A DNA stretch of 63,710 nt, counting the filler, from Chrysochromulina tobinii (Eukaryota): the NCBI GenBank assembly GCA_001275005.1. It is 4 parts of 4 records of this genome, joined end to end, with 100 filler letters (N's around TTAATTAATTAA, not from the genome) between each part and the next. Parts side by side here need not be neighbours in the genome. Positions count along the whole stretch, not along the records: positions 47,171 to 63,710 come from JWZX01001079.1; 3 more parts are not named here. One strand, 5' to 3'. Positions 15,552 through 63,710 of this stretch are shown here, piece after piece. Every line of letters begins with the position of its first letter. Position 1 is the stretch's first letter. Both the position numbers and the translations under genes were made by a program. Under the pieces are notes generated by a model. It was not told the origin of the DNA, ran no database searches, and was given only the letters and a program-made list of their open reading frames with translations.

Positions 15552-15600
15552 CGTGTCAGACTGCCCTCGCCTCCGCTTGTCGAAGAAAGTCAGCGATAGC
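15509..15600 (+). repeat. Perfect 44-bp direct repeat spanning the stop codon
   Basis: CAGACTGCCCTCGCCTCCGCTTGTCGAAGAAAGTCAGCGATAGC at 15509-15552 and 15557-15600. Confidence 0.95.
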
Positions 15601-33388: not shown

Positions 33389-33644
33389 TGAGTGTTCCAG
33401 GAGTATGTACGCGAAGCAATGCACACAGAGGCGCTCGTAGCGCAAAGCGGGTCGCCGTGAAGCAAACTTATCTCGATGTAATCTGAAAACGCAATCTGCT
33501 GCCGCCTCATCCATCTGTCCTTTTTTCGCGTCCTTTTGAGCGTCTACGAAACTTGAGGCATGTGGACTGGTCTGTAAAAACAGACAGCTGAACGCACTCG
33601 CGCACGGCACGGGCTGGGCGGGCGTGGCTATCTGACAGTCGAGA

Positions 33645-43373: not shown

Positions 43374-46300
43374 GTACTGCAGGGTGCCCGACGAGTCGGT
43401 CGCCACGGTGCCGCCGTACGAGTAGCCGGTGATGCCCTCGATCGTCGTGGTGGTCGCCACGTTGGTCGGCGCGTTGCCGAGCAGGATGAGCCCGCCCCAC
43501 TTGCCGCGCTCGCCGAGCGTGATGGCGTTCTCATTCGAGTCCGTGAAAACGGTGACCGAGCTCGATAGCGCCGACTCGGCAAGCACGGACGTGAACGTGA
43601 TCGGCAGCGAGAACGTGCCCGACGCGCTGATCGAGCCACCCTTCAAGACCACGAGCGCCGGAGCGGGATCCGTGTCCATGACGGGCAGCCCATACACGGA
43701 GGTGCCGGCGGCGATGGTGAGCGTGACGCCCGATTGCACGAAGAGCTGCGAGGCGAGCAGATAAGACGTTGTGTTCGTCCAGGATGCGCTTGCGCTGAGG
43801 GCGCCGCCCACCGCGGCCGCCGTGTCGAGGAGGGTAGCAAAGGGAGCGGCTGGGATGCCAGTGCACGTGGATCCAACCATCTTGCCACTGCACGCCAGCC
43901 ACGAGTAGCCGGCGAGCCAGTTGTCCGTCGAGCTGCCGAACGCGCCCTTGCAGGACACCGACGAGAAGAAGGTGTCGCCGTTGGGGGGTGCGTCCTTGCC
44001 GCTCTGGCAGGCCGCACCAGTCTCCATCGGGAGCGGATTGAATGTGCTGCTCAGCCCCGTGTAATCCAGCATGGACGCTGGCACGTTCGTTAGGCCAGGG
44101 TCAATATTGAGTGCCGAGAAGACCCCAGCGGCGCAATTGGTGCCGAGCGAAATGGGGGTCGCGGCGCCATTGATGATGTTGTTCGGCGAGAAGTACAGGT
44201 ACGTGTTGATCGAAACCGACGCGGCGGGCAGCGAAGACGTGCGCGTCTCGGTGCCGCAGTCATTGTTAAGCAAGCCGACGTCCCGGGCGTTCGTGAGCAC
44301 GATGTTGCCAAACTTGCCGCCCGTGCCCTCGCGCAGGCGCATCAGGCCGCCGGTGCGGCCCGAGGCGCCGCCACCGATGATGGTCATCGAGTAGAAGGCC
44401 GGGTGCGAGCGCGGCAGCGAGTTCAGGTTGCTGTTGGTCATCGAGTCCATCTCTGTGCCGTGGTTGCCACCGAAGCCAGTCATCGCAAAGAGGTACTGGC
44501 CGCGGCCCTGGTACCCCTCATCCGTGTCGAAGGCGTCGTCGATCACGAAGAGCGCCGACAGGTACTTGACGTCGACTGTGCCGCCGAAGAACTCGAAGCC
44601 GTCGTCCGCGTTGAACGCCACCTCGCAGTGGTCGACGACGGTGCCGGAGCCGACGCCGCCGAAGGTGATGCCGTTGATCTCGTTGTTCGCGCCCACGATC
44701 GCGCCGCCGTGCCACACGCGCACGTACTGCATGACGCCCGAGCCGTCGGTCGGCACGGAGCCGCCGTACGTGTAGCCGGTGATGCCCTCGATCTGCGTGG
44801 TGGTCGGCATGTTGGTCGGCGCGTTGCCGAGCAGGATGAGGCCGCCCCACTTGCCGCGCTCGCCGAGCGTGATGGCGTTCTCATTCGAGTCCGTGGAGGC
44901 GGTGGCCGAGCTCACGAGCGCCGACTCTGCAAGCACGGACGTGAACGTGATCGGCATCGTCGCGCTGCCCGTCGCCACGAGCGAGCCGCCCTTCACGACC
45001 ACGATCGCCGGAGCGGGGTCCGTGTCCATGACGGGCAGCCCATACACGGAGGTGCCGGCGGCGATGGTGAGCGTGACGCCCGATTGCACGAAGAGCTGTG
45101 AGGCGAGTAGATAAGACGTTGTGTTCGTCCAGGATGCGCTTGCGCTCAGGGCGCCGCCCACCGCGACCGCCGTGTCGAGGAGGGTAGCAAAGGGAGTGGT
45201 TGGGATGCCAGTGCACGTGGATCCAACCATCTTGCCGCTGCACGCGAGCCACGAGTAGCCGGCGAGCCAGTTGTCCGTCGAGGTGCCGAACGCGCCCTTG
45301 CAGCTCACCGTTGAGAAGAAGGGGTCGCCGTTGGGGGGTGCGTCCTTGCCGCTCTGGCAGGCCGCACCAGTCGCCGTCGGGAGCGGATTGAACGTGCTGC
45401 TCAGCCCCGTGTAATCCAGCATGGACGCTGGCACGTTCGTTAGGCCAGGGTCCACTGTGATTGCCGAGAAGGCCCCGGCGATGCAACCGGTGCCGAACGA
45501 AATGGGGGTCGCGGCGCCATTGATGATGTTGTTCGGCGAGAAGTACAGGTACGTGTCGATCGAAACCGACGCGGCGGGCAGCACAGACGTGCGCGTCTCG
45601 GCGCCGCAGTCATTGTTAAGCAAGCCGATGTCCCGGGCGTTCGTGAGCACGATGTTGCCAAACTTGCCGCCCGTGCCCTCGCGCAGGCGCATCAGGCCGC
45701 CAGTGCGGCCCGAGGCGCCGCCACCGATGATGGTCATCGAGTAGAAGGCCGGGTGCGAGCGCGGCTGCGAGTTCAGGTTGCCGTTGGTCATCGAGTCCAT
45801 CTCTGTGCCGTGGTTGCCACCGAAGCCAGTCATCGCAAAGAGGTACTGGCCGCGGCCCCGGTACCCCTCATCCGTGTCGAAGGCGTCGTCGCCCACGAAG
45901 AGCACCGACAGGTACTTGACGTCGACTGTGCCGCCGAAGAACTCGAAGCCGTCGTCCGCGTTGAAGGCCACCTCGCAGTGGTCGACGACGGTGCCGGAGC
46001 CGACGCCGCCGAACGTGATGCCGTTGATCTCGTTGTTCGCGCTCACGCGCGCGCCGCCGTGCCACACGCGCACGTACCGCATGACGCCCGAGCCGTCGGT
46101 CGGCACGATACCGCCGTACGTGTAGCCGGTGATACCCTCGATCTCCAATGGTGACGACGCCGACGTGGGCGCAAGGCCGAGCACGATGATGCCACCCCAC
46201 TTGCCGCGATTCTCGAGAACGGTGGCGGCGAATTGCGAGTCAGACGAGACCGTTTCGCTCGACGCCCTCTCCGGGTTGAGAGCCGTGAAGGTGATGGGCG

Positions 46301-47070
46301 AAGCCGCAGTGCCATCCGCGATGACCTTGCCGCCCTTCAAGACGACGAGAGCGGGCGCAGCGCCACCGATGGCCTTGGGCGTCGAGTAGATCGTCGTACC
46401 AGCGCCGATCGCAACCGTCTTTCCGCTTGGCACAAACACCTGGCACGTCATCACGTAGATGCGGCCTGGCATCCACGTCACGTCAGTCGTGAGATTGTGG
46501 CTCGGAACACCGGCCGGGCACAGGCTCACAGGCTCCGAGGCCTCAGCAGCAGTGGGGCACGTGTACGAGCTCGACACGAAGCCGCCGTGCGTGTTCACGA
46601 ACGACCAGCCGTTGAGCCAGTTCACGCTGCCAAAGGCGCCCTTGAAGTTGACAGCATCGAAGAAAGGGTCAGCAACCGTGGATGCGGCCACGTCCTCCAC
46701 GTCTTGGAACGCCGCGCCGCCGCACACAGGGCGCGGGTCGAGCGGCAGCGTCGCGGACAGTCCACCGCTCAGTTCGAATCGGCTCCAAAGATTGTGCGCC
46801 GACATGAGCAGCGGGTCCGTCTGCACGGCGGTGAAGCTCAGCAGATCAGTCGAGCACTTGCCGCTCTCGGTGCTGAAGACCGAGCCCGTCCCCGAGGGCA
46901 CACCCGAGATGATGTTCTTGGAGCTGAAGTACAGGTAGTTGAGGACGCTGGGCGTGACGAATGACAGCTGCTGGGTGATCAGGTAGTTGCTGCTCCACGA
47001 GGTGGATGAGCACTGGAGGATCTCGACGCCGATGTTGGTCGGGTTGTCCAGGAGCACATTGATGAACTTG
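43374..47070 (-). CDS. Large extracellular-type beta-helix repeat protein with ~450-aa tandem modules; truncated at both ends
   Basis: Open across the whole contig; module GKWGGLILLGNAP..EG..YGG..DGSGVMxYVRVWHGG..NEINGITFGGVGSGT..DDGFEFFGGTV repeats with a 1350-bp period. Confidence 0.85.
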
Positions 47071-47170: not shown

Positions 47171-48183
47171 CCCCCCCGCCGGCAGCCGCACCGGAGAGCG
47201 CCGCGTCGGGCAGCGCCGTGTCGGGCGCGGAGACCGGCGGGCTCGACGCCGCGCTGCGCGCCAATGTCGAGTCACAGCTCGAGCGGCTTCTGGCGCAGCT
47301 CGAAGATCTGGAAGAGCTCAAGGAGGACCTGTCGGAGGAGGAGTACGTCGAACGGCCTCAAATGGCCTCGGAGTGCCTCTTGATTGCCTCTTGATTGCCT
47401 CTGATTGCGTCTGATTGCGTCTGATGGCCTCGGAGTGCCTCTTGATTGCCACTGAGGACCTCTGAGAACACTTTCGAGTGCCTCCCTCATCATCTCTGAG
47501 TGCCTCCCTCATCATCTCTGAGTGCCTCCCTCATCATCTCTGAGTGCCTCCCTCATCATCTCTGATTGCCTCCCTCATCATCTCTGATTGCCTCCCTCAT
47601 CAGGTACAAGGCGACCAAGGAGGACACACTGGCGCAACTCAAGGAGTTCCAAACGTCCCTCGCCAAGATGGCCTCGGGCTCGATGACGCTGCAGTCGAAC
47701 CTCGAAAAGACGCGGCTCGCCGTCTCGGCGGCCGTCTCCGGCGCCTTCCAGACACCCGAGGTCAGCCGGCCCTTCGCCTCCACGCAGCCCGCCGCATGCA
47801 AGTGCTCACCACGGCGCCCTCCCCTCCCGTTTCCCCACAGGTCATCCGGCTCTTCGCCTCCAAGCAGCCCGCCGCGATGCGCCGCCGGCTCGCCGAGATG
47901 GAGCGAGATGTCAAGCTCGGCAAGCTCGCGGCCGCGGCCTTCGACGGCATGAAGTCCGAGATGCTGGTCGCACTCAAGAAGCTCGGGGAGCCGCTCAGCG
48001 CGAGCGAGGAGGCCTTCCTGGGCGCAAACAAGTCCGCGTCCCTCTCGGAGTTTGAGGCGGTCGATGATAATGCGGACCAGGTGAGCCAGCTGCCGGTGAA
48101 CCTCTGATTGCGTCTGATTGCGTCTGATTGCGTCTGATGGCCTCCCTCATCAGGTGAGCCAGCTGCCGGTGAACCTCTCGTGA
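47171..48183 (+). CDS. LZIC: LZIC (leucine zipper and ICAT-homologous) protein, 5' truncated; introns 47343-47603, 47761-47840, 48081-48153
   Basis: Spliced: NVESQLERLLAQLEDLEELKEDLSEEE|YKATKEDTLAQLKEF..AFQTPE|VIRLFASKQP..LKKLGEPLSASEEAFL. Confidence 0.9.
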
Positions 48184-48690
48184 ACGAATCGCCGGTGTGA
48201 ACGAAGTGTGAACCTCTCGTGAACGAAGCGCCGGGAGCACACACCGTGTGCGCATCGTTGACGCGTCGTCGCAGGCGCCGATGACGCGCGTCGTCGTGGG
48301 CAACGAAGCGCCGAAGACGCGTCGTCGTGGGCGCCGTGGGCGCCGAAGACGCGTCGTATTGGGCACAGTGGGCGCCGAAGACGCGTCGACGCGTCTCTGG
48401 GACTGCGGTGATGATGTGGAGATCGAGATCGAGATGGGAGTGCGAGCGAGGGGCAGCCTGGCAACTCTACACAGCGGGGCATCACGCGTTTATTCAGGAC
48501 GGCGAAAAACACAAAACTCGGCTCCAGCGTGTGTGAATCGGTAGGGTCGGAGACTAATTGGGGGGAAGAGTTCAGAAACACATTCACATTCACACATGCT
48601 CGAGTCGGCACCGCGCCTGCACACCGCGCCGCCGAGCCCCACTCACAGGAGGCCACAGTGCACATCATATCAGGGTGCGCAGCGCACGCG

Positions 48691-50388
48691 ATGACGACTT
48701 CCGCGTCACAGTGGATATACCCAAGTTTGGCGCTCAACTGCATCTTCTTCGTGCACCTCGTTGTGCGCGGCAATCTTGTCCCATGTAGTGCTGTGCCATG
48801 TTTCGTGGCGACGCCGTCTGCAAGTTCAGAGACCCCGTCTGCGAGGTCAGCGACCCCGTCTGCAAGCTCAGAGGCCGAATCCATGCCTCCAAGGGACCCA
48901 CAGAGTTTGCCAATCTGGGCCAGGTTCGCACGGTATCCAGGGCCCGATTGGAACAAGCTCTTGGCCGACGAGAAGGTGGAGCGAAAACCCCATCGAACTT
49001 CTCCGCCGACGCCGCCGTATCCGCCGCCAGGGCCCACTCAGACGGTTGGTTCGCCAACTTGCACGCATTTGCTGGAGTGCAGCCTCTCCAAGGGTATGCG
49101 GTCCAAGGTGTACCAAGCGTTCCAGAATGGATACACGCACCGGATCCCAGACGAACTTGGATACGAGAATGGCATCCGAGACCTCGCCGACGGCGGCAGC
49201 GAGCTCCTCGTCCCGATTCGAAAGCAAATCATGCCGCCCGCTGCCAACATCCAGCTTGACTGGAAGCCTGCGCCGTGGCCCACACGCATCGATCTCAACC
49301 ACCTCAACTGGGCAGCCCTTCCAAATGGGGAGAGGTTCCGCGAGTGTGGGAAATCGCATGCACTCACTAATGAAGTGCACTTATACTGCAAGTGCGTGCT
49401 CCGCTTGCGTCGACCGTTTGCTCCTGGAGCCCCCACCACCTCGAAGCGGGCGCCTCAGGAGCCGTCCTTTGTTTGCCCGCAGGTTTTTCACAAAGCAGGC
49501 CCTCTTGTGGAATAAGGACTATTGGCCGGGTGCGGAGCCCTACGACGACATCCCCGACCACGTGTTCGATCGGCCAGACGTGCGGCTGGTGCTTGATCTA
49601 GGTGCCGGCAACGGCAACCTCGCCGTCAACTTGTTCCGGCGATATGGCGATCGCGTCATCACGGTGTCCGCCACGCTCATCGTCGCCGCCGAGGCAGGCA
49701 CGCTCACGCCGCCCTTCCTGCAACGGATGACATGCAACTGATTACATGCTGATGACATGCAACTGATGACATGCAACTGATGACATGCTGATTACAGGCA
49801 CGCTCACGCCGCCCTTCATGCAACTGATCGCGGCGCGTGGCTTCCCCACTGTGGCGGTCGACATCTACTCATTCTTCCCCTTTGGTGAATCAACGTTTGA
49901 CGTGGTCCACACGAGCTGGGTCTATCACAGCGGCTTCACGCGCCACGCCATCATGGAGATGTGAGCACTCGCCACGTGATTCCACCCGGGCCTCACAAAC
50001 GCTGTCACGTGATTCGAACCTGGCCTCACAAACACGCTGTGTGCCTGGCTGAGCGGCGGTACCCGATCGGTTCCGTTGGGCAGGTACTGATTACAAATGA
50101 TTACATGCTGATTACATGCTGATTACATGCTGATTACCGTTGGGCAGGTACCGCGTGCTGCGCCCCGGCGGGTACTTGATCCATACGGTGTGGGATAAGA
50201 TGGCCTCCCTCCGGGGCACGCTGCTCCTCGAGTCGCTCGCCGCGAAGATGAATTGGAAGCTTCTCGCTCATTACGAGACCATGAAGGGGCATAATGTCAC
50301 CAAGGCGAGGCTCCGGGGGGACAAGGTGCCCTACGACTGCTACAAGACCGTCTACCAGATGCCGAGCTACAAGTACTCGAAGAGGTAG
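48691..50388 (+). CDS. Type II membrane class I SAM-dependent methyltransferase; introns 49392-49482, 49698-49797 (GC-AG), 49961-50147
   Basis: N-terminal hydrophobic anchor; VLDLGAGNG, PFMQLIAARG, FPFGESTFDVVH, EM|YRVLRPGGYL assembled across introns. Confidence 0.82.
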
Positions 50389-50732
50389 GAAGTCCTGCAG
50401 GTACGTGTGACTCAATACAGGCAAGGTGTGTAGATTCCAACGGGGGCTTTGAGCCACGACACCGGGTCACTGCAATGCCGATGTTCCACAGGCGACAACG
50501 AGCTATTACGTACAGTACATTTCTGTGTTTCTGTGATTTCGAATCGTCTTGATCTGTTTGTCAGTTGGCTGTTGCGCGGTTGTACGATCGGTAATAGTAC
50601 CTACACCCGAGATAGGCCGATGTCCGAACGAAATAGCGTCGTGCCGAGCGTTTTTCGCGTTCAACGCCCTCTCTCGCGACCTCCTTGGCGGGGAAGGCGA
50701 GCTGCTACAGGCTACTAGCCTCGCCGGAATCG

Positions 50733-53700
50733 ATGGCGCGCAAGACGCACAAAAAGTCGCTGCAAGAGTACATGGAAGAGAATGGGATTGGCGTCGGGGA
50801 TCCGGACGACGATGAGGAAAGCGTGGTGGCGCCCATTGTGCAGGAGACGCCGCGGCTCGTCACACGTGCCCTTCGGACGGAGCACCTGCAGCCGCTCATC
50901 GACCTCGTCTTCTCGGACAGCACCGAGGTGCAACGCAACGCGACGCGCTTGCTCGGCACGCTGGCCCTCAACGCCGATAACATCGACATCCTGATCGACT
51001 CTGGCTCGTTGGGGCCGCTGCTGACGATGGCAGGGTCGACCGACTCGTCGGTGCGGCGCGCGGCGCTTGCAGGCCTCGCGCACATGAGCTCACGCGACGA
51101 CATTCGGACGAAGCTTTGCGCGGTGGCCGGCGGGCTCCAGACGGTGGTCGCCGGCGTCACATGCAGCGACGGGCCGTCGAGGTTGGCCGCGGCCGAGTGC
51201 ATGGCCAACATCGCCACCTCCCTGAAGCTGCGTGGGAGGCTGATTGACAGCAAGGTGGGCGGGCTGCCCGCGCTGCTCTCGCTGCTCACGTCGCGCACGT
51301 CCGAGCTCAAGCGCTGGGGCATGCTCACGCTGCAGCGCCTCGCCGTCTGCCGGAAGACCAATGGTGCCATCATCACCACCAAAGACGACCCCGAAGGCGA
51401 CGGTTACGCGGACGAGCTACTTAAGGCAGGCGTGCTGCAGCCGCTGCTCACGATGCTCCGGGCGGGCACGATGAGTCTCGAGGAGGACCTGCGCACGCAG
51501 GCCATGTGCACCGTCTACTCTCTGGCCGACGCGAATGAGGAGATCAAGAAGAAGCTCGGCGAGCACCCGGTGAGGGCCGAGATTTCCCTGAATGACGAAC
51601 CCCTGATGAAACTGTGACGGAACTGTGACGAGCCCGATAGCTCGGCGAGCGCACCCGGTGTGAATGCCTCGACGAGAGCACACGGGCGAGTGTGCCATGG
51701 AGCGCCTTTGAGTGATGAGTGACGTTGATGATGAGTGGCGCTGATGAGTGTCTCTTGATCGCCTCTTGATCTTCCCTTGAGAGCCCCTGATGGCCCCTGA
51801 TGGCCCCTTGAGGGCCCCCTGAGAGCCTCCGATGGCCCCTTGAGGGCCATGGCCCCAGAATTGCAGTGGTCATCAGAATTGCAGGTGCTCGTGAAGGCCA
51901 TTGTGGGCTTGCTGACGACCACTGATTGCCTCTGATGACCACTGATTGCCTCCCTCATCAGGTGCTCATGAAGGCCATAGTGGGCTTGCTCACGCTGGAC
52001 GACCACGCGGGCACCGGCGCGACGCAGCGCGAGGCCTGCCGCACCGTCCAGCTGCTCGCGACGCGCGCCGACAATGTGTATCGCCTCCTCGGCGCTGGCT
52101 TGATCGTTTCACTCTCGATGCTCGCCCGCACCGAGAATCTCATCAAGAAGCAGTTTGCGAGCACGATGCTGCTACGGGTCGCTACGGAAGCGGGCTGCCG
52201 GCGCTCGCTGCTCGATGCCGGTGGCGCGCGCACGCTGTGCTTCCTCTGATTGCCTCTGATTGCCTCTGATTGCCTCTGATTGCCTCTGATTGCCTCCCTC
52301 ATCAGGTGGCGCGCGCACGCTGTGCTTCCTATGCCGCCCGTCGCTTCCTCGCAAGGTCGTCCGTCCCGCGGCGAACGCGATCTCACTGATGTGCAGCTCG
52401 GCCGAGTGCGTGCCGTCGCTGCTCGACACGGGCGCCGGCTCGGTGCTTGCGACGCTCGCGAGCTCGTCCGACCCGGAGATGCTCCTCGGCGGCTGCCAGG
52501 CGCTCGCCAACATGCTCGCGTGCATGGCGGAGGAGGCGGGGACGGTGGCCAAGGCGGTGAACCGCGCGGGCAGCCCGGTTGTGAACCGCGCGGGCAGCCC
52601 GGTTGTGTCGCGCCCCACCTCGCCAATCTCCCAAACCTCGGCCGAAGAAGACGAGGAGCGCCGTCCCGGGCGGGGCGCCACCGAACCGGAGGGGGCGCCG
52701 TCCCGGGCGCCCCCTCCCAAACCGGAGGGGGCGCCCACGAGCGCCGTCTCGAGCGCCGACCCGCTCGGCCGGGTGCGCGAGGCCGTCCGAGTGACCGACC
52801 AGCTGCATGCTGATGGCCTCCCTCATTGCATGCTGATGGCCTCCCTCATCAGGTGCGCGAGGCTGTCCGAGTGACCGACCAGCTGCTTCAGCAAGGCGCC
52901 CTCTCCGTCTTCCTGTCGGCCGCGACCTCCTCCGATCGCCAGCTGCAGCTGCATGCCTCCCGCGGCCTCAAATTCATCGCGATGCGCTCGCCACTCTTTG
53001 CGCGCGTCCTCGCCCGCAAGGGCGCCGCGCGCGCCCTCGCTGCGCTGCTGGGTGCCGCGCGTGAGGAAACGCTCCGGAACGCAGTAACGGCCCTCCACCT
53101 GATCACCACGGCGCTCTGTGAGGGCGTTGGGCGCGAGCCTCTCACGGCCAAGCGTCTCTCGACGGTGCGCGGAGGGCAGCTCTGATGGCATGCTGATTGC
53201 ATGCGGATTACATGCTGATGGCATGGTGATTACATGGTGATTACATGCGGATTACATCTCTGATCGCGTGCTGCTTGCCCATCTGCTCGCGTGCTGCTCG
53301 CCTCCCTCATTGCATGCTGCTCGCCTCCCTGATCAGGTGCGCGGGGTGCTCGAGCTCGGTGTGGTGGGCACACCCAAGGAGCTCTGGGCGCGCCTGAATG
53401 AGGACGGTGGGCTGCCCGCGGCGACGCTCCTTCGGCTCGCATGCCACTTTGAGGGGCTGCACGCCGAGGCGGGGGAGCGCTCGCGAGCGATACTCGAATT
53501 GCTCAAGCCGGGCTTGCTGCAGTCCCTCGACATCGACGACCCAAGACGCGCCAGCCAGTCGGCGAAGGCGATCGCTGAGCGCCGAGGGAGGAATAAATCC
53601 ATCGCCAAGGTCCAGAACCTGTTCCGCCTTTCTCGCAGCCTGAAGCCGGCCGCGGCCGACCCGTTCACCGCGTTCAGCCGACCGACTACCTCGGCGAACG

Positions 53701-54435
53701 CCACGGGCGCCGCCTCGGGCGCGGCCTCGAACTTTGCGTCGCTCGTGCGCGCGGCCAAGCTGGGCAACGGGCTCGTGGCGAACGACTCGCCGCGCTGGGC
53801 CAAGGCGTGGGGAGGCGCCTTTGGGGCCAAGGCGGGCTCGGCCGCGGCTGCCTCGGTACTGAACGCGCAAGCGACAGGCGCGGACGCGATCTCGAAGCTA
53901 ACCCTAACCCTAACCCTAACCCCAACCCTGACCCTAACCCTGACCCTGACCCTAACCAGGCGCGGACGCGCTGTCGAAGCTCAAGGAGGCCGCGGCCCAC
54001 GCACGGAAGGCGTCCCAAGAGGCCGGTCCCAAGTTCAAGTCGCTCGCGGCCGCTGCAGGCGCCCACGATGGCGCGGGGAAGCGGACGCTCTTCGCGATCC
54101 TGCACCAGCCTCGCCCGCCCGCGACGGCGCGTCCCGAGGCGAGCGGCGCACGCGCGCGAGCGGTCAGCCTCCTGGGAGCAGAGACCGCCTCGTCCTCAGC
54201 CGAGCCAGCCCAATCCGAAGCGCCAGGTGCGCCAGGAGCGCCGGCGGTCACCAAAGAGAGGCACACCGGTAGGCCTCCTGCTTTGGGATTGTGGCTCGGC
54301 GGCGCCGTCGGCACGAGCAGCGCTGCTGGAGCAGCTGCTGGGGCGATGGTGGTGGCGGCGCCCGAGAAGGAGAAGCGGATCTCGGCAGTGCGGCGCGCTC
54401 AGATGACTCTCGAGGCCCAGGATCTGACGCTTTAA
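50733..54435 (+). CDS. Armadillo-repeat protein; introns 51570-51961, 52221-52305, 52773-52852, 53165-53336, 53878-53959 (GC-AG)
   Basis: ARM repeats (LQPLIDLVFSDSTEVQRNATRLLGTLA, GGLPALLSLLTS); the five introns give a continuous frame to TAA at 54433-54435. Confidence 0.82.
53900..53959 (+). repeat. Interstitial telomere-type (CCCTAA/CCCTGA)n array forming the body of an intron
   Basis: AACCCTAACCCTAACCCTAACCCCAACCCTGACCCTAACCCTGACCCTGACCCTAACCAG. Confidence 0.92.
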
Positions 54436-54660
54436 GCGGGCGGGATTTCTTTTTTAGCTTGTCGACTAGTCAGAACTCGGACACTTGTACGGTAGGTGTG
54501 CGGTGTCCACAAAGATGTGTAAAAGATGTGCGGTGTTCACAAAATCCATCCCCCACCCCCTTCCCCCCTACGCATGCAAGAGTTTCCCACAGCCTGTGTT
54601 CACGCCGTGACTCGCGCGAAGGCGTGATTAGGCGCTCGCGGCCGAAAACAAGCGGGGGAA

Positions 54661-55881
54661 ATGCCCCGACCACCGCCACCGCCGGCTATGGACGTCGAGG
54701 ACATCCTCGTGCGCATGCGGCAGATGCTCAAGAAGCGTGGTGCGGTGGGCATCAGGGGACTGACGAGAAACTTTCAGATCTGCGACACCGACAAATCGGA
54801 GAAGCTCAACCTCGCCGAGTTGACTAAATGCGTCAACTTGTGCAAGCTCGACCTCTCGCAAGAGGAGGTCCGCGCACTGCACCGCCATTTCGATTCGTCC
54901 GGCGACGGACTGGTGAGCTTCGACGAGTTCGTCAAGACAGTGCGCGGTCGGATGAGCGAGCCACGCAAGAAGCTCGTGATCAAGTGCTTTGAGGCTCTCG
55001 ACCAGGCAGGCGACGGCAACGGCCAGCTGTCGGTGGCCGACTTGAAGCCGTACTTCAACGTCGAGCACGATCCTCGCTTCCTCACGGGCGAGAAGACGGC
55101 ACACGAGCTCCTCCAGGAGTTTGTCGACGGGTTCGAGCGAGGCCAGGGAGGCGGAGACGGCGTCATCGGCATCGACGAGTGGATCGGCTATTATGAGGAG
55201 CTGTCAGCGGGGATCGACGACGACGACTACTTCGGTGTGATGCTAGTGAACGCGTGGAGTGCACTGAAGAAAAAAGGGCCGAATGGCGAGGAGGTGCCAG
55301 CCATCCAGTATGTGTGCGAGGGCGACATCGACGTGCTCGAGCAGATCCTTCGGAAGAACATCTTCCAAAAGTCGGTCGGTACGAATGAGGTGCGTGCGCT
55401 GAAGGAGACGTTCAAGCGCTTTGACCAGGACAATAGCGGCGAGGTCAACTTTCGCGAGTTTTGTCGAGCGATGGAGTGCTTCGGGCTCTCCGTGTCGCAG
55501 CCTGGTCAAAAGGGCTCTGGAGGCGTGCCGCCCGATGTGCTGCGCGGCCTCTTCAACCGTTACAACACTGACGGGTCCGAGTGCATCAGCTACCTCGAGT
55601 TTACGAGCGGGCTGTTCCAGCGTGAGGCGGAGGCGCGGAGCAGCGACCCCGCGTTCACCACTGGCAACGGCGCCAATCTCACGCTGCCAAACCTCGTGCG
55701 CGACTATGATGCCGTGGCCGCCTCGGCAGCAGGGCTCGCACCACCGCCGCGCTGTATGCCTGACACGCGGAAATCACCCCTCCTCCGACCCGACGGTAAA
55801 GGGGGGAGCCTTGGCAATTACCCAGTGCGGCCCGATCGCGTCGTACGTCCCGAAGAGCGGGCGAAGGGCTTCTTCCGGTAA
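54661..55881 (+). CDS. Calcyphosin-like multi-EF-hand protein
   Basis: RGAVGIRGL..F...D, FDSSGDGLVSFDEF..VRGRMSEPRK, LDQAGDG, DGVIGIDEWIGYYEELSAGIDDDDYF, plus an extra EF pair FDQDNSGEVNFREF. Confidence 0.9.
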   Translation: MPRPPPPPAMDVEDILVRMRQMLKKRGAVGIRGLTRNFQICDTDKSEKLNLAELTKCVNLCKLDLSQEEVRALHRHFDSSGDGLVSFDEFVKTVRGRMSEPRKKLVIKCFEALDQAGDGNGQLSVADLKPYFNVEHDPRFLTGEKTAHELLQEFVDGFERGQGGGDGVIGIDEWIGYYEELSAGIDDDDYFGVMLVNAWSALKKKGPNGEEVPAIQYVCEGDIDVLEQILRKNIFQKSVGTNEVRALKETFKRFDQDNSGEVNFREFCRAMECFGLSVSQPGQKGSGGVPPDVLRGLFNRYNTDGSECISYLEFTSGLFQREAEARSSDPAFTTGNGANLTLPNLVRDYDAVAASAAGLAPPPRCMPDTRKSPLLRPDGKGGSLGNYPVRPDRVVRPEERAKGFFR

Positions 55882-56335
55882 CGGAGAGGAGCGGAGTCAG
55901 TCGGTAACCCTAACCGGAAGCGCATACCGCGATGTTCGTCGAGCTGGTTGCCTTATATAAGCTCTGAGTCTCTGTACACTCTCGGAGCTGCGCCTCGGAT
56001 CGTAAGAAGTAGCGGGGACTAGTGGTTGAGCTTATAGTTTCAAAATCCGGACTTATAACGTAAAACGTAAAAGTCAAAACGGCATATCTCGGGATACCGG
56101 TTACCGCTTCGTTCGATCGCAATTGTGAATTGACTAGCGTATACGACCGTATTACGTTAATAGCGGGTCCGAGTGTAGACGCTGCCTGTCGTCTCCCTGC
56201 AGGAGGCGTGAGTAGGAGATGCACACATCGGGTGATGACGTGAGGCGCGGTCGAGAGACGTGCCGCAGCTGCACACCTGTGCGTCTAGAATGATCTTGAA
56301 TGATCGTGCGCGTCGTCTGGCGGCCGCGGCGTGGG

Positions 56336-59300
56336 TCATTGCCGCAGCGTGACATAGGGCGGCTCATCGTTGGCGCAGCGGCAGAAGCCGCATGGCACGA
56401 TCGCCATCAGATCGGCTGGAGGGCGGAGAGTGCCCTCCTTCCCGCGGCACTGGTAGCACGCAGAGGGCAGGTTGCAGTTGTTTGCACGGCCCGTGTCGCT
56501 TCCTAATTTGGCACGGCCCGTGTCGAGCGCGGCCGACTGGTTGTTCCAGAGCTGCTTGAACTCGTGCGGCAGGTGGTCGATGGTCTTGGCGCACCTGATG
56601 AGGGGGTGGGGTGTCGGAGGCCATCAGACGCAATCAGCGGCCATTAGCGGCCATCAGCGGCCATCAGCGGCCATCAGCGCACTGGTAAGAGTAGACGTTC
56701 CACTCGGCCTGCTGGCTGAACCAGCACTGTGCATACTCGGGGTGTCGCGCCATGATGTCTCGTCGGTTGCGCGCAAATTGGGCACAGTTCCATGCAGTGT
56801 AGAGGCCAGTGAAGATCGGGTCGTGGCGCGCGCGCTGGTTGCCCGGGTGCTTGACCACAGAGTCGCCCGTGACGAAGTGGAACGTGAGCCGCGGCGAGAG
56901 CAACGCCATCCGACAGCCCGCGTGCGCATGCAACGCCTGCATCAGGTCCGTTGCGATCATTGAGACGCCCACCTGATGAGGGAGGCAATCAGTATGCCAT
57001 CAGAGAGGCAATCAGCATGCCATCAGAGACGCCCACCTGATGAGGGCTCGCCATCATTCGCCATCATTCGCCATCATTCGCCATCAATCGTCATCATTCG
57101 CCATCATTCGCCATCAATCGTCATCATTCGCCATCATTAGTCATCAATCGTCATCACCATTGTGAAACCGAGTGAGAGCTGCGGCACCCAGCGGCGCGGG
57201 AAGGTCCAACAGTCGTGACCTGGATGGGCGAGGCCCGTCCCACGCCATCCGAGAGCTTGCTCCACGCCGAAGGTGACGGGAGCGTGCTCGTACTCCTCTC
57301 TGATGAAGCTGATTGGAATGTCGGGCATCAGCTGTGCCAACGGGTAGAACGGGTAGGGGGAGGGGCGAGAGGGAGGGCAGGGGAAGGGGGTGACGAGGAG
57401 GGAGGTAACCTCAGGAGCACACCCAAAGCACATCGGGAGCTCATCGGGAGCTCATCGGGAGCTCATCGGGAGCTCATCGGGAGCTCATCGGGAGCTCATC
57501 GGGAGCTCATCGGGAGCTCACCTGCAGCTGACGCGCGAGCTTGAGGTAGAACGGCGCCTGCACGCCAATGTCGATGTTTGAGTACGTCAGGTGCTCTCCC
57601 TCGCCCTTGAGGTAGCCGGCGTACCTGATGAGGGAGGCAATCGGATGCAATCTCCTGAGGGGCGGCGTAACTGATGAGGGAGGCTTTTTGATGCGAGCGG
57701 CCATCCGAGGCCATCGGTGGCAATCAGCAGGCAAACCACGTACAGGATCATGTTGAGGAAGGGGAGCTTGGCGTGATGACGGAAGCTCGGGAGCAGCGTC
57801 GCGACCGACACGTTGAGCAGCGCGACGGCGAAGCCCTGCTGTGCGCACTGCGGCAGCCGGGCAGCGTCTTCGGGGAACATGGCGCAGACCACATCGACGC
57901 GCACGCCCTGGGTGTTTGCGAGGGCGACGGCGTGCGAGATGGAGGCGATGGTGATCTCTTGCGCGCGCGCATGCTCGGCGTCGTGCTCGGAGTAGAACGG
58001 GTTGATCACGTGCGTGATCGAGATGTTCTGCGCGCGCCGCGGCGGCGCCGCACGCGCCGCCCACTCGGAGAACCAATGCTCAGCACGGCGCGGCGGCTCG
58101 GGCTGCAGCACGCGCACGACTGGCTGGCGGACGAATTCTTGGGTCCACGCGCCGCAGCAGCGTGGCGGCTCGGCGCTCGACTTTGCCTCGCGGAGTCGTG
58201 TCTCGATGAAGGTCTTGCGCACCTGGACAGAAGGAGGCGCGCCATCAGCGGCAATCAAGGGAGATCGCACCTGGACAGAGGGGGCGCGCCATCAGCGGCA
58301 ATCAAGGGAGATTGCACCTCGTCCGACCAGGCGGAGGTCGTGCCACCGTCCATCGGCGCTGTCGCATTGCTCTTCTTCTTGGGCTTCGCCTTGAGGGAGA
58401 GGGTGAAGGCGCGCTGTACCGAGCTGATGGGTACCTCAAGGAACTCGGCCAACGGCGCCGGGTACCTGAAGCAAGGGGGGCGCCGTGGTGGGCATGGGTG
58501 CCGTTAAGGCGCCGTGGTGGGCATATGCATGCCGTGGCGGGTACTTGAAGCAAGGGGGGCGCAATCAGCGGCCATCCGCGGCAATCGGCTGTCGTCAGTG
58601 GAACTCAGAGGCACTTAGAGACACACAGAGGCACTCAGTGGCACACAGAGGCCGTCAGAGGCCATCAGAGGCACTCAGTGGCACCCAGAGGCGCTCAGGT
58701 GCACTTCGGCGCACCGCTCAGGGCGCAAAAGCATGTCCGTGTAGTTGACGACGCGGTACTCCTCCGCGCGGAGCATCTGCAGCTGTGAATACATCTGGTC
58801 GAGCTGTGACAAGAAGAGGCTCACCTGTGGTTGGCGTAGTGCGTGGCGCCGTGGTGAGCACATGCATGCCGACGCGTGCACGCGCGCCGTGGTGAGCATG
58901 CGCATGCCGACGCGTGCGCTCGCTGTGACATGAGGCGAGGCGAGGCGAGGCGGCTCTCACCTGCTGGATATCATCAGAGGTCATCAGGGAGGTCATCAGA
59001 TGTCATCAGCGAGGCGAGGCGGCTCTCACCTGCTGGATATCATCAGAGGTCATCAGGGAGGTCATCAGATGTCATCAGCGAGGCGAGGCGGCTCTCACCT
59101 GCTTGTGCAGCTTGAAGGTGCGGCCAGCCCGCCGCCAGATCTTTGGGAGCCCGCGGTTGTTCATCGACATGATCGCGTCGATCGGGTCGCGGTACAGCAC
59201 GATCACCTTGAGCCGCACGCCGAGCAGGTCGCACATGTACACGATGTCCGCCAGGTCGGGGTAGTGGGTTCCGTCCTCGGTCTCGTTCGACGAGCGAGAA

Positions 59301-60166
59301 AAGGGATACGAAAACATCTGGCCTACGGGCTGGAAGGAGCCGTTATTGGATCGGCCGTCCAGCAGCTGGCCCGCCAGCTGCTGCTGCATCCCGCTGATCC
59401 ACGAGCAGTGCCGCTGACGCGAGATGCGGAAGCACGTGCGCGCGCAGAAGGCGGGGTGCTTGTGGTGCGAGTGGGCCTGACGGACCCATTCGGCGAAGGC
59501 CTCGAGGGCGGCCCAGAACGTGGCTGGGTCGTGGTGCTTCGGGTCCCACCAGAGCGACTGGAACACCTGCTCCTGCACCAGCGACATGGGCATCAGCTCG
59601 GGCAGCCGCATCATGAGCGCGGTGATGAAGTGGTGGCCTGTGCCCTCGGCGCCGGCGACGAAGACAAGCTGCCGTTGGCTATCGCTGAGCGGCTTGCTGT
59701 GGTCGGCGGGCTGCTGGGGCTTCACGTACGGCCGCCAGAAGGATGTGTCGAGCGGCGTCTCGATGGACGCGCGCCGCTTCACGACCTCGAGGAAGGCCTC
59801 CTGCTGCGCCTCGGCCGAAAGCCGCTGCGGAGGCGGAGGCGGAGGCGGGCTGCTGAGATCGGGCGGCGTTGGAAACCCGGTGGGCGAGAGGGAGGAGGAA
59901 AAGGAAGATGGTGATGATGATGAGGAGGAGCTGATGTGGTCCACGGTTGGGAGCAGAAGCTCGTGCTGCAGCAGCACGCACGACAGCGCCGCAGCCGAGA
60001 GCGACGCGGTCGCGAGCATCATGAGCTTGACGACGCCGAGTGGCGCCTCGCACTCGCGATCGGCGCGACGGTCGTGGCGGGCATGCTGGGCGGGGAGCAG
60101 GCGGCTGGAGGAGGCGGTGGAGGAGGTGGTGGTGGCGGTGGCGGCTGCGTCGGAGAGCGTGGGCAT
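56336..60166 (-). CDS. Type II membrane protein with a sulfotransferase-like domain and a second, possibly glycan-modifying, domain; introns 58825-59098, 58466-58714, 58223-58317, 57625-57743, 57332-57521, 56973-57157, 56595-56682
   Basis: TM anchor; PAPS-loop-like FVAGAEGTGHH and KVIVLYRDPIDAIMS; frame restored across seven GT-AG introns to TGA at 56336. Confidence 0.75.
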
Positions 60167-60390
60167 AGAGGCGGAGCCAAGTCGGTGTGAAGGGGTGAAG
60201 AGATTTGTTGAGGGTCACCCCTTTACACACGAGAGCACGAATTACATGTATGGCTCCTCTGCTCAAGAGTCGCTACGCACGAAGTGTGGTGGCGAACCTT
60301 TGATACCGAAGATGCTCGGCAACTGTTTGGGGTTCGCAAGTTAGCATGCGATTATAAGTTGTTGATCGCAAGTGTTGGAGGATACTTTCC

Positions 60391-60463
60391 TTCCCTATAG
60401 TCTAGTTGGTTAGGATAACCCGCTTTCACCGGGTCGACCTGGGTTCGAGTCCCAGTGGGGAAA
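60391..60463 (+). tRNA. tRNA-Glu (anticodon TTC)
   Basis: Acceptor TTCCCTA/TGGGGAA; D-arm; anticodon stem ACCCG/CGGGT with CT-TTC-AC loop (60425-60427); T-arm CTGGG-TTCGAGT-CCCAG. Confidence 0.93.
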
Positions 60464-60824
60464 AAAAAAAACTTGCTTCCTTTGTCAACCTCTTTTGCAC
60501 CTGTCCGGATCCGACGAGTCCCAGTGGGTCCGGATCCGTGCGAAATGACGCGCCCCGGGCGGCCTCCCCGCCCCCGCGCCCCCGGGTGCGGGCGGTGGGC
60601 CCGCCCCCGCGTTGGGGTCGTGGCTCGTGCCGCGCCGCGGGGGGAACCATGCCGCATGCGGGGATGGGGGAACTCTTACTAAACCGGGCGGCGTGGGATC
60701 TAGAGCATCTTTGGCCCGTTCGATTACGATTTCGTCCTATAAGTATCACCAAAACAATGCGCAGCATGCGTGTATGGGGCACGGTAGCCGCGACGCCCCT
60801 CGTGTGTCCTCTGAGTCCACCTTC

Positions 60825-63710
60825 TCAACTGAGAGAAGTTTTCTCGAGCGCGCCGCTCAGCTTGCTTGTTGCCCCATCGGCGCCGTCGCGGGCGGCGCGC
60901 GCCGCGCCGAGCGCACTCGAGAGGTGGATGATCCACAAGTTACGTTCCTCCTCAGTCGGGGCGGCAAGCACGACGCCGCCGTCGGGCGCGCCGTCCCGAG
61001 CGGTGAGGCGGAACGCGTAGGGCAGATTGTCCGACGGAGGCTGCGACGACCAGTCATCAGAGGTCGTCAGAGGTCATCAAAGGTCATCAGAGGTCATCAG
61101 AGGTCATCAGGGCAGATTGTCCGACGGAGGCTCTGGGGAAATGGGTGCTACGACCAGTGGGGCAGGGGAGGGGGCGCCCAGGACGACGCACGGTTGAGGC
61201 GCGCGTCAGCACAGATCAGAACGCGGCGCCGCCACGCGCGCTCGCGGCACTGTGGGGAGATCGGGGAGATCGATGGGAGATCGATGGGAGATCGATGGGA
61301 TAAGAGGGGGTCGCGTCGTCCCGGGCAGCGCACCGTGGCTTGCTCCACCCGATCGAAGCCGGAGAGCGGTACGATGCCGCGCGCGTGCTGCGGAGGGTCG
61401 TCGGCGTTCTGGTAGTACACGATCGTGCCCTCGTCGCGCAGGCGGAAGTGGCGAGCGACCCAATCCCGTGCCTGCCCTGTCTCCGCCTCGCTCCGCTGCG
61501 CAATGTGCACCTGATGAGGGAGGCAATCAGCATCCCATCAGAGAGGCAATCAGAGGCCATCCTGATCGAGCAGTCTCCGCCTCGCTCGCACTGATGAGGG
61601 AGGCAATCGGCATCCCATCAGAGATGCACTCGGCACCTTGGAGGCTCGCTTATAGAGGAGGCCGCTCAACTCGGTGCCTCGCGATGTGGCGTCTTCGGCC
61701 GCACTGGCGGAGCTACTCGGTACTTTGATGACCTCTGATTGCCTGGCATGAGTGGAAACTCCCCCGCCGGCGGTCGCGGCGGTCGCGACGGGCAGCGGCG
61801 AAGAGGGCGGCGCCACGGCGGACGAGGAAGCCGACAGCTGCGCGCCACAGGCGCAGAGGACGCGTATCCAGTCATCGCGTTCCCGCGCCGAGTCCGACGC
61901 GAGGTGGTACCTGATGAGGGAAGCCATCCGAGGTCATCAGAGGTTATCAAGAGGCAATCAGGTGAGCGGTGCCTGATGAGGGAAGCCTTTAGGGAAGCCA
62001 TTCCTCGGAGGTCACATCAGAGGCACCACTCGGCAGGTCATCCGAGGTCATCCGAGGTCATCCGAGGCCATCCGAGGTCATCCGAGGTCATCCGAGGTCA
62101 TCAGGGGCCATGCGTACGTCCGATTGCTCGTGTGCACCGCAAACGAATAGTGGCGGGCAAGCGAATTCTCTCCCTCGCCATGAGGCTGGATGATCAGTGG
62201 CGTGGGCCGCGCGCCGGCGCCATTGCTCATCACGGCGCTATGGCTCGACTCGCGACCACCGTTGGTGCCGCCGCCGCCGCTGCCGTGCGCCACGGCCGCG
62301 CCCGCACCGCCGTGGTGAGCACTTGCATGCGCGGGAGCGGCCGCGCCCGCACCGCCGTCGGGTGCCGTGGCGCCATAGTGGGCGCCGTAGTGGGCGCCGC
62401 TGCTCAGCTCGGCGCCGCTGTCAGACTTGCCGAACGCCCTTACACTGGCTGACGGGCTCGAGCCGCCGCTGATCGAGATGACGCCGAGAGAGAGGGGGCG
62501 GGGCGTCGTGGTGAGCGCTTGCATGCAACGCACGCCATCAGAGGCAATCAACGCACCTGCTCGAGCGGCACCCACTCCAACTTCTGATGAGGGACACAAT
62601 CACATGCAATCAGAGGCACTCAAGGCACCTGATCGAGATGACGCCGAGAGGCTGGAATGGGTTGGACATCTCGGCCGCGTAGTAGTAGAAGAGCTCGCCG
62701 TCGCACAGGCAAAAGTAGCGCCTCTTCCAGGACGGGACCCGCCGCCCCTTTTTGTAGAGATGGCCCTGCGAACCGAGGCCACGGGATGCGATGAGATGAA
62801 TTGGGAGATGCGATGAGATGCATTGGGAGATGCGATGAGATGCATTGGGATGCGATGAGATACGCCGAGTGACCACTCCGGGGTCACTCGGCGTCAGAGT
62901 GGTCACTCGGCGTCACTCAGCCGTCACTCAGCCGTCACTCTGCGGCCACTCAGCGGCCGCTCTGAGGAGCTCTCAGCGGCACCCACCTGCTTGGTGCACA
63001 CTCGATGGAGTGACTGGTGCAGCGCCGTCTCGTCTTCGCCGAACTCGGCGCCGTGTTGGGCGTCTGCCTCCACAAAGTAGCAGAAGAGCGACGAGGCCGC
63101 CAGCGCCGGGATGGCCACGCACTGCTGCAGGTAGCGCTCGAGCGCCACGCGTCGCTCCTCGACGAAGCTCGGGTGAAGGTTGCCGAAGGCGCGCTTCGCT
63201 GGGAGGGCCTGCGGCACTAGCGGGCCGAACTCCTTGCGCAGCAGCTGGTCCAGCAGGTTGAAGTGCTTGTACCTGTGGGGAGAGGCGAGGGCGCCGTGGT
63301 GAGCGCGTGCATGCACGGCAGGCCATCAGCATGCAATCAACGTACCGTCGCTCGGAGCGAGAGAGGGCGCCGGGGTGAGCGCTTGCATGCACGGCAGGCC
63401 ATCAGCATGCAATCAACGTACCGTCGCTCGGATCGCAGCGTCGTCTGCACGCCGTGCACGAGCAGCACGGAGTCGACCAGGTACGTGACGTACTCGTTGC
63501 CATGCCCACCCTCGCGCTGACGCTGGGTACCGGCGAGGCGCACCGAGTGGAGCACAACGTCCTTTGATCGCGCACGCAGCTCGGTGCCCGTCGGCGACAA
63601 GGGCGGCCCTCGCCCCTCGAGCGCCGTGGTGAGCGCCTCGTCGCCCGCGTGCATGCCCACACCGATCGTGAGCGCTGTGGTGAGCAGCCCGCCGCCGAGC
63701 TCACCACGGC
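60825..63710 (-). CDS. PX + two PH domain protein, 5' end beyond the window; introns 63273-63421, 62766-62986, 62469-62628, 61911-62117, 61511-61636, 61041-61333
   Basis: PX: YVTYLV..ERR|YKHFNLL..LPAKR..FVEERRVALERYLQ; PH1: GHLYKKGRRVPSWKRRYFCL..RT|YHLASDSARERDDWI; PH2: SGLLYKR..WVARHFRL..LAAPTEEERNLWI. Confidence 0.87.

What the first reader, a model, noticed from the sequence alone, without database searches (positions are those of the whole stretch)
47343..63421. Apparent intron-generating system: exon-start duplication + branch-point microsatellite filler + shared acceptor CCCTCATCAG
Seen: in several unrelated genes the intron begins with a near-exact copy of the downstream exon's first bases. 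Cases are 47761-47840 (35 nt, 3 mismatches), 48081-48153 (25 nt, exact), 49698-49797 (31 nt, 2 mm), 51885-51961 (33 nt, 3 mm), 52221-52305 (25 nt, exact), 52773-52852 (34 nt, 1 mm) and 53878-53959 (22 nt, 2 mm). A tandem filler such as (CTGATTGCCT)n follows, then a stereotyped 3' end. CCCTCATCAG occurs about 15 times in this contig, always in gene-sense orientation on either strand. The copy starts with GT or GC, so splicing removes one copy plus the filler and restores the frame. Established: CTRAY is the branch-point consensus; described Introners are mostly TIR DNA transposons with short TSDs; repair-associated intron gains usually show short repeats. Inference: the layout [TSD][5'-variable insert with constant 3' AG end][TSD] matches target-primed reverse transcription of an excised intron's 3' end into (A)G|GT/GC sites, or templated repair of a staggered break. 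That would be a TIR-less, self-propagating intron family. I cannot confirm that it is undescribed.
Basis: partly seen in the sequence, partly recalled or inferred. Interest (0 to 1): 0.95.

Follow-up and report, generated by a model that had tools for sequence, protein, structure and literature searches.

The report
Ongoing intron birth by duplicate-and-fill
In this haptophyte alga six introns begin with a 22-35 base copy of the next exon followed by repeats shared with many other introns, and related gene copies appear to lack four of them, so new introns are likely still being made when DNA-break repair duplicates a stretch of a gene and fills the gap from existing intron ends.

Summary
All seven exon-start copies are present as described: 6 of 24 modelled introns start with one, against 0 of 552 shuffled pairs. 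One correction: 51885-51961 is only the 3' end of intron 51570-51961. The alga is Chrysochromulina tobinii. Empty sites support recent gain. A paralog lacks the 49698 intron in DNA, and reading frames of close relatives run through 47761, 48081 (in some) and 52221 while other introns stay unspliced. The pattern is wider than reported. The same duplication plus filler occurs at old acceptors, at old donors, in mirror form, at a non-GT site and in frame inside an exon. Ends are not constant, since only 3 of the 6 end in CCCTCATCAG. This favours staggered-break or template-switch repair copying from a high-copy pool of intron ends, filtered by selection for spliceability (0.55), over target-primed reverse transcription of excised introns (0.22). 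I saw no direct RNA joint for the six introns and had no genome-wide count. A published survey scores this species as having no introners. Verdict: a new variant of repair-associated intron gain.

The parts
47343..47603 (+). LZIC intron 1: older filler-rich intron ending CCCTCATCAG; best local match (32 nt) to the insert of intron 48081-48153
   Evidence: open frame; match; unspliced in relatives' ORFs
47761..47840 (+). LZIC intron 2: 35-nt exon-start copy (3 mismatches) + family-B intron end; site read through in 11 of 11 informative cluster members, present in L003
48081..48153 (+). LZIC intron 3: exact 25-nt exon copy + 10-mer filler + CCCTCATCAG; present in 5 and absent in 6 of 11 relatives' ORFs (inferred from protein ends); filler one unit longer in L003
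49698..49797 (+). Intron of a methyltransferase-like gene (family name from motif recall; no Pfam hit): GC donor, 31-nt exon copy + 11/14-mer filler; absent from a paralog in DNA
49961..50147 (+). Older intron with a 15-17-nt repeat spanning its acceptor (50071 and 50135) around pure filler; the acceptor comes from the duplication
   Evidence: joint 49960-50148 in paralog-like RNA contigs
51570..51961 (+). ARM-gene intron 1, spliced to the last AG; holds a 33-nt exon-2 copy at 51885 behind an older acceptor, and a partial copy of the donor region at 51639
52221..52305 (+). ARM intron 2: exact 25-nt copy + perfect 10-mer array + CCCTCATCAG; likely the youngest, site read through in 6 of 9 close relatives' ORFs
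52773..52852 (+). ARM intron 3: 34-nt copy (1 mismatch) + two 23-nt units ending CCCTCATCAG; shared by 7 of 9 close relatives
53165..53336 (+). ARM intron 4: filler-rich, 8-nt exon copy at its start; spliced in one RNA contig
   Evidence: record 9; record 29
53878..53959 (+). ARM intron 5: GC donor, 22-nt copy + telomere-like hexamer filler
56973..57157 (-). Intron with older acceptor + 11-nt exon copy + new filler + second acceptor
57625..57743 (-). Intron with a 22-25-nt repeat spanning its acceptor (57687 and 57641); first copy altered from AG|GT to AG|TT
58223..58317 (-). 47-48-nt intron duplicated whole in tandem
58466..58714 (-). Intron with a repeat spanning its acceptor (58565 and 58486) around family-B-derived filler
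58825..59098 (-). Intron with a duplication of its own donor region plus filler, present twice as an exact 69-nt unit
61041..61333 (-). Intron holding a 22-nt exon copy that starts CC, not GT/GC, followed by filler and a new acceptor; last AG used
   Evidence: RNA joint in 4 of 4 runs
61511..61636 (-). Intron with two acceptors and a deleted exon copy between them; last AG used
   Evidence: RNA joint in 4 of 4 runs
61726..61744 (+). 19 nt of filler lying antisense inside a coding exon of the minus-strand gene
   Evidence: exon covered by RNA contigs
62293..62358 (-). In-frame exonic insertion: exact 21-nt duplication around 24 nt of family-B sequence; no intron formed
   Evidence: RNA contig X17 record 22 covers 62114-62490 without gaps
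62469..62628 (-). Mirror case: intron ENDS with an exact 22-nt copy of the upstream exon's end
   Evidence: RNA joint with 22 letters fitting both sides, 1 of 4 runs
63273..63421 (-). Intron with a 76-nt unit duplicated across its donor; family-B end
   Evidence: RNA joint in 4 of 4 runs

Best explanation
These introns likely arise in one step when repair of a staggered break, or a stalled fork, in a gene duplicates about 10-50 bases and fills the gap by microhomology-guided copying from the repeat-rich ends of existing introns. Shown: the duplications, the shared inserts and an empty site in a paralog's DNA. Inferred steps: (1) offset nicks or a template switch leave the same 22-35 nt on both sides; (2) the free 3' end pairs over about 2-5 nt with an intron's filler, nearby or elsewhere, as DNA or possibly as RNA, and copies 20-70 nt with slippage; (3) the ends rejoin over 1-3 nt plus GT/GC; (4) selection keeps exonic events only if the copy starts like a donor and the insert ends in AG (a new intron) or the frame is kept, while events at old introns survive in any register that leaves a usable last acceptor; (5) each new intron enlarges the template pool, so the process feeds itself without an element-encoded enzyme.
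For: Exon-edge copies lie in 11 of 24 introns against 0 of 552 shuffled pairs, at offsets 0, internal and terminal (two boundaries of copy-free introns corrected). Other registers, pure tandem duplications and an in-frame exonic insert occur. At the copy-to-filler joint 1-5 bases are shared with the template (5, 3, 3, 2, 1, 4, 4 in the 7 of 9 joints where the script found one). Empty site in a paralog at single-copy depth in 2 of 2 DNA runs. Read-through ORFs in relatives that keep neighbouring introns unspliced. A relative's ORF P0078 translates as family-B inserts at two sites empty in the window (inferred from protein). 2,350 and 2,289 DNA contigs were laid on a 4.1-kb stretch, with summed depth of 17,000-40,000 in most filler bins against about 45 elsewhere (not a copy number). 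Best matches of three inserts are in the same gene (32, 16 and 16 nt). An independent locus, L004, has a 39-nt repeat around four 10-mers. Breaks with 3' overhangs give tandem duplications with microhomology and occasional templated inserts in mouse cells (PMC5730883, passages).
Against: Filler motifs are nearly confined to introns (66 hits in modelled introns, 5 elsewhere, all five in or at genes); plain DNA repair does not explain their absence from intergenic DNA unless breaks are transcription-linked or templates are local. All intronic motif hits are in sense. For 11 of 14 inserts the best match is in another gene or is trivial. Five of the six stand-alone cases share only 1-3 nt upstream, which is thin for rejoining. 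No direct RNA joint was listed for any of the six stand-alone introns (15 of 89 and 15 of 158 joints shown). Read-through ORFs could be partly spliced RNA; intron retention is common in Emiliania (PMC4028052, passages). The paralog's empty site has 8 letters where splicing leaves 5. One 16.5-kb contig is a small sample, and one picked for this feature.
Confidence: 0.55

Rival explanations
1. A reverse transcriptase (non-LTR, Penelope-like or telomerase-like) primes on a nicked gene and copies the 3' end of an excised intron RNA, giving a long variable target duplication, a variable 5' end and an AG 3' end.
For: The geometry of the six stand-alone cases fits target-primed reverse transcription as recalled from L1 biology: variable duplication, microhomology at the 5' joint, 1-3 nt shared at the 3' joint. 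Inserts are sense and gene-confined. One filler is telomere-like. A survey classes about 5% of categorised introners as non-LTR-derived and lists one such family in another haptophyte (PMC12130899, passages and supplement rows).
Against: Mirror, donor-side, acceptor-spanning and exonic events have inserts that do not end at an intron's AG. A non-GT target exists. Four different ends occur among six cases. AG ends and sense orientation are expected from selection alone. No reverse transcriptase was tested.
Confidence: 0.22
2. Turnover of old introns, not gain: a tandem duplication across an existing acceptor, or an aborted copy from spliced cDNA, leaves an exon copy, and the upstream part of the old intron is then lost precisely.
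For: The intermediate exists: older acceptor + exon copy + filler + acceptor at 51885, 57035, 61130 and 61590, and joints in DNA contigs from other loci show acceptor-short unique-filler order (table 5c).
Against: It predicts an ordinary intron at the same site in relatives. The paralog has none in DNA, and relatives' ORFs read through 47761, 48081 and 52221, including more distant ones that keep other introns unspliced.
Confidence: 0.1
3. Plain tandem genomic duplication of an AG|GT-containing exon segment creates the intron; microsatellite growth and gene conversion among intron ends later overwrite its 3' part.
For: Tandem duplications without insert are frequent in the window; the mechanism is established (PMC3443670, passages); filler length varies between strains.
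Against: The apparently youngest intron (52221: exact copy, perfect array, absent from a relative identical over the queried exon) already has the full filler and acceptor, which points to one step; no intron made only of duplicated exon was found among the 24.
Confidence: 0.08
4. A classical introner (non-autonomous DNA transposon) family whose copies have decayed.
For: Marine Chrysochromulina MAGs carry introners with 4-bp duplications and no inverted repeats (10.1101/2022.06.06.494994, passages; supplement rows).
Against: No fixed length, fixed termini or fixed duplication size (22-35 nt among the six); longest exact match between any of 14 inserts and another intron is 6-32 nt; the species is scored with 0 introner families.
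Confidence: 0.05

Closest known systems
Intron gain by staggered double-strand-break repair in Daphnia pulex (PMC4202315, passages seen)
   Same: Polymorphic new introns; direct repeat of adjacent exon bases at the opposite intron end; further duplications inside young introns.
   Different: Daphnia repeats shared with an adjacent exon are 4-12 bp; here 22-35 nt. Here the insert is traceable to a high-copy pool of other introns' filler and acceptor ends.
Intron gain by tandem genomic duplication (PMC3443670 passages; PMC3265369 and PMC4974935 search listing only)
   Same: A duplicated exon segment beginning at AG|GT supplies the donor and splicing restores the frame.
   Different: Only the first 22-35 nt are duplicated exon; branch-point-like repeats and the acceptor come from elsewhere.
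Introners (10.1101/2022.06.06.494994 / PMC9860276; PMC12130899; passages and supplement rows)
   Same: Many introns share sequence; donor co-opted from the target duplication and acceptor carried; haptophytes are known hosts, and one Emiliania family has that polarity.
   Different: No element boundaries, inverted repeats or fixed duplication length; duplications of 2-5 nt are listed for haptophyte families; C. tobinii is listed with 0 families.
Tandem duplication with templated insert at breaks with 3' overhangs, cNHEJ/TMEJ (PMC5730883, passages)
   Same: Duplication of the overhang, microhomology at joints, occasional templated inserts.
   Different: Shown at engineered breaks in mouse cells with local templates; not linked there to intron birth.
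Introner-like elements and sister introns of fungi (PMC8469720, passages)
   Same: Intron sequence proposed as filler or template in break repair; no transposase.
   Different: Those are full-length, hairpin-forming and insert without duplication; these are partial, tandem-repeat-based and flanked by long duplications.

Membership tests
Repair-associated intron gain | Intron absent in close relatives or paralogs | tested here: met
   Paralog DNA lacks 49698 intron; relatives' ORFs read through 47761, 48081 (6 of 11), 52221 (6 of 9), DNA not seen
Repair-associated intron gain | Direct repeat of flanking exon at the intron end beyond chance | tested here: met
   6 of 24 versus 0 of 552; longer than the 4-12 bp of Daphnia
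Repair-associated intron gain | Microhomology at insert joints | tested here: met
   1-5 nt at 7 of 9 joints, no template found for 2; no formal null computed
Repair-associated intron gain | Dependence on end-joining enzymes | not testable with these tools
   needs mutants; no genome held
Spliceosomal intron | Removed from mRNA at the stated junctions | tested here: inconclusive
   All five spliced frames open and continuous with orthologues; RNA joints seen for 8 other introns of the contig and one in a paralog, none listed for the six stand-alone cases
Introner (transposon-derived) | Multiple near-identical full-length copies with defined termini | tested here: not met
   longest exact shared stretch 6-32 nt for 14 inserts against 23 other introns; window only
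Introner (transposon-derived) | Fixed short target duplication and/or terminal inverted repeats | tested here: not met
   duplications 22-35 nt and variable; best antisense match of inserts to other introns 6-11 nt; no inverted ends visible in the sequences
Target-primed retrotransposition of intron RNA | Insert always ends at the RNA's 3' terminus | tested here: not met
   exonic, mirror and acceptor-spanning inserts end in mid-template; met trivially in the six stand-alone cases
Target-primed retrotransposition of intron RNA | Variable-length target duplication with variable 5' end | tested here: met
Target-primed retrotransposition of intron RNA | An intact reverse transcriptase/endonuclease in the genome | not testable with these tools
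   no genome held
Tandem genomic duplication intron gain | Whole intron is a copy of adjacent exon sequence | tested here: not met
   only 22-35 of 73-100 nt are exon copy

The most novel reading that the evidence does not exclude
An element-free, self-feeding intron generator: intron RNA, excised or nascent, is the template that a reverse-transcribing enzyme copies into staggered breaks of transcribed genes, so that intron 3' ends propagate genome-wide, create new introns and rebuild old splice sites, with no transposon and invisible to introner screens.
Probability: 0.25. Interest if true: 0.92.

Novelty: new variant of a known kind. Interest (0 to 1): 0.7.

Why it matters
Most recently gained introns have no traceable source, and a recent survey proposes transposons as the main cause of ongoing gain (PMC12130899, abstract). 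Here young, apparently still polymorphic introns show both halves of their origin: the donor is a long copy of the target and the acceptor side is borrowed from other introns, in a species scored as having no introners. If this holds genome-wide, it is a second route to mass intron gain that current screens miss. It is directly testable in a cultured alga with wild relatives, by strain comparison and mutation accumulation. It also explains why gene prediction fails in this genome: the public model P0039 runs from LZIC into the next gene and ends in the 49698 exon copy.

Tried and rejected
No whole genome is held, so there is no genome-wide count and no RT search. The one metagenome scan gave 3 loci of 248 stretches; all three carry LZIC intron 47761 or match the window, and none shows an empty site. 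Viral-contig scans gave 0, 1 and 0 loci. RNA joints for the six stand-alone introns were not among those listed; contigs that stop at 52219 and 52771 and continue elsewhere are only a hint, and the telomere-like stretch was skipped by the tool. The joint 49693-49799 was rejected as proof of splicing because it stands in DNA too. Assembly artefact was rejected. A constant acceptor was rejected. Local templating is unresolved: 3 of 14 inserts match best within their own gene. P0084 diverges six residues after the 52221 site and may be a parallel insert or a contig end; not counted. P0080 and P0081 start after that site and are uninformative. Intron 48081 does not sort cleanly with protein variants, so recombination, loss or partly spliced RNA remain possible there. 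Pfam named ICAT, Arm and EF-hand but not the methyltransferase-like, PH-like or fifth gene fragments. Three look-ups in earlier scan findings gave nothing that bears on this. Literature: nine searches found no description of this layout; four motifs were absent from the 2022 supplement (cut when stored) and two from 12 of 14 files of the 2025 supplement. Subscription papers and unseen supplements, including introner consensus sets held outside the papers, may bear on novelty.
Full report
Setting. The window is four contigs joined by N spacers; the finding covers the last, 47171-63710. A public protein model matching its LZIC translation is named Chrysochromulina tobinii, a haptophyte alga. I modelled 24 introns in five genes by hand. 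All five spliced frames are open: 198 of 201, 439 of 440, 963 of 965, 877 of 880 and 506 of 506 codons. RNA contigs show joints for the six introns of the last gene (five in 4 of 4 runs, one in 1 of 4) and for ARM introns 51570-51961 and 53165-53336 in one run.

Observation. The seven copies are exactly as described. Six of 24 introns start with an exon copy, against 0 of 552 shuffled pairs, and 11 of 24 hold a copy of an exon edge somewhere, against 0 of 552. Both counts ran with a few boundaries of copy-free introns still off, corrected. DNA contigs of two runs span four of the copies without differences. Assembly L002 is identical over 10,629 bases, and strain L003 at 94.6% has both LZIC introns with one more filler unit. 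One correction: the copy at 51885 lies inside a 392-nt intron spliced to its last AG. Of 15 CCCTCATCAG hits, 10 end introns and 5 are internal; only 3 of the 6 stand-alone cases end with it.

Are they new introns? Four sites have evidence of an empty state. At 49698 a paralog (7 differences in 133 nt) joins 49693 to 49799 in 2 of 2 DNA runs at depth 45-47, equal to the locus itself, with 8 letters between where splicing leaves 5. At 47761, 11 of 11 informative members of a 15-member protein cluster read through the site; 8 of them begin inside unspliced intron 1 and none shows the spliced exon 1-2 junction. Three other members are fragments of the next gene and one is the public model. At 48081, 5 of the 11 stop where the intron copy stops and 6 run on as if it were absent. 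At 52221, 6 of 9 close relatives read through, five of them running on into the unspliced 52773 intron; two are uninformative and one diverges just after the site. P0078 translates as family-B inserts at two sites that are empty in the window (inference from protein). I did not see the DNA behind these proteins. Partly spliced RNA is the alternative, and retention is common in Emiliania (PMC4028052, passages), but the same neighbouring intron is retained each time, and one variant is on 63 contigs. No direct RNA joint was listed for the six stand-alone introns; their splicing rests on open frames and orthologue continuity.

The pattern is wider than reported. Duplication plus filler also occurs behind old acceptors (51885, 57035, 61130, 61590), across acceptors so that the AG comes from the duplication (50071, 57687, 58565), across donors (59105, 63435, 51553), as a mirror image with the exon end copied at the intron end (62469-62628), and as a whole-intron duplication (58223-58317). 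The copy at 61130 starts CC, so GT/GC is not needed by the process. Inside a coding exon a 21-nt exact duplication flanks 24 nt of family-B sequence in frame, within an ungapped RNA contig, and 19 nt of filler lie antisense in another exon. An unrelated locus, L004, has a 39-nt repeat around four 10-mers upstream of a family-B intron end. At copy-to-filler joints 1-5 bases are shared in 7 of 9 cases. The filler pool is large: 2,350 and 2,289 DNA contigs were laid on 4.1 kb, and joints from other loci show acceptor, short unique stretch, filler. Nine of ten filler units contain the CTRAY branch-point motif (consensus recalled) and none contains AG in sense, while nine do in antisense. Selection against stray acceptors could therefore produce the sense bias (inference).

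Mechanism. I favour one-step repair of a staggered break or stalled fork with microhomology-guided copying from intron ends, followed by selection (0.55). It covers every register seen, and engineered breaks with 3' overhangs give the same product class (PMC5730883, passages). Five of the six stand-alone copies have G at position 5, as most donors here do, which fits a filter for donor-like targets. Against it, filler is almost confined to genes (66 motif hits in introns, 5 elsewhere), which hints at a link to transcription or to local templates; 3 of 14 inserts match best in their own gene. Target-primed reverse transcription of excised introns fits the six stand-alone cases but not the inserts that end in mid-template (0.22). 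Turnover of old introns (0.10), duplication followed by overwriting (0.08) and a decayed introner (0.05) fit worse. Whether the template is DNA or RNA is untested.

Comparison with what is known. It works like Daphnia repair-associated gain, whose exon-shared repeats are 4-12 bp (PMC4202315, passages), and like tandem-duplication gain for the donor (PMC3443670, passages). It is not an introner by the tests I could run. Marine Chrysochromulina MAGs have introners with 4-bp duplications (10.1101/2022.06.06.494994, passages; PMC9860276 supplement rows), while C. tobinii is listed with 0 families (PMC12130899 supplement row). Fungal sister introns insert without duplication (PMC8469720, passages). 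Passages of the species' genome paper (PMC4580454) and of PMC8379373 do not mention this layout. Nine searches found no description; the library lacks most subscription papers, and two supplement files were not searched.

Verdict. A real feature and likely ongoing intron gain; a new variant of repair-associated gain with unusually long duplications and a traceable, self-enlarging source. Interest 0.70. The RNA-templated, element-free reading remains open at 0.25.

Noticed in passing
window 25973-26047 (-): In another contig, a glutamate dehydrogenase gene has an exact 18-nt duplication around 18 nt of filler-like sequence, within a probable short intron that ends in an 8-nt copy of the upstream exon end (Pfam). 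The process is not confined to the last contig.
   Followed up: partly
window 1-47070 versus 47171-63710: All 15 CCCTCATCAG hits lie in the last 16.5 kb; the other contigs hold mostly long open frames and few filler introns (one at about 25275-25440), so filler introns are patchy.
   Followed up: partly
window 12897-13881: About 1 kb of degenerate 11-mer repeats arranged in two orientations, outside any modelled gene and unlike the intron fillers; function unknown.
   Followed up: no
window 52557-52607: In-frame 24-nt tandem repeat in an ARM-gene exon varies from one to three units among relatives' proteins.
   Followed up: partly
window 15509-15600: Exact 48-nt tandem duplication at the end of a 422-codon open frame with no Pfam match.
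   Followed up: no
window 51570-51961, 61041-61333, 61511-61636, 61911-62117: Where an intron holds two acceptor-like ends, RNA contigs use the last one; upstream ones are often altered. Either distal AG choice or recursive splicing.
   Followed up: partly
window 48689-50390: The methyltransferase-like gene has a paralog about 95% identical that dominates the RNA contigs over this stretch and has a different third intron at the same position.
   Followed up: partly
L004 1-2060: A contig filed as viral ends in about 330 bases of haptophyte-like intron sequence; probably a chimeric join.
   Followed up: partly
window 1929-6500 (-): 1523-codon open frame with 21 decapeptide-repeat matches and a weak XK-related match.
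   Followed up: no
window 43374-47069 (-): Open frame of over 1200 codons, cut by contig ends, with no Pfam family above its cut-off.
   Followed up: no
window 33636-41234 (+): 2532-codon open frame rich in alanine-glutamate-lysine repeats; not identified.
   Followed up: no
protein P0084: A relative's ORF leaves the ARM frame six residues after the 52221 site into a different low-complexity sequence; possible parallel gain at the same site, or a contig end.
   Followed up: no
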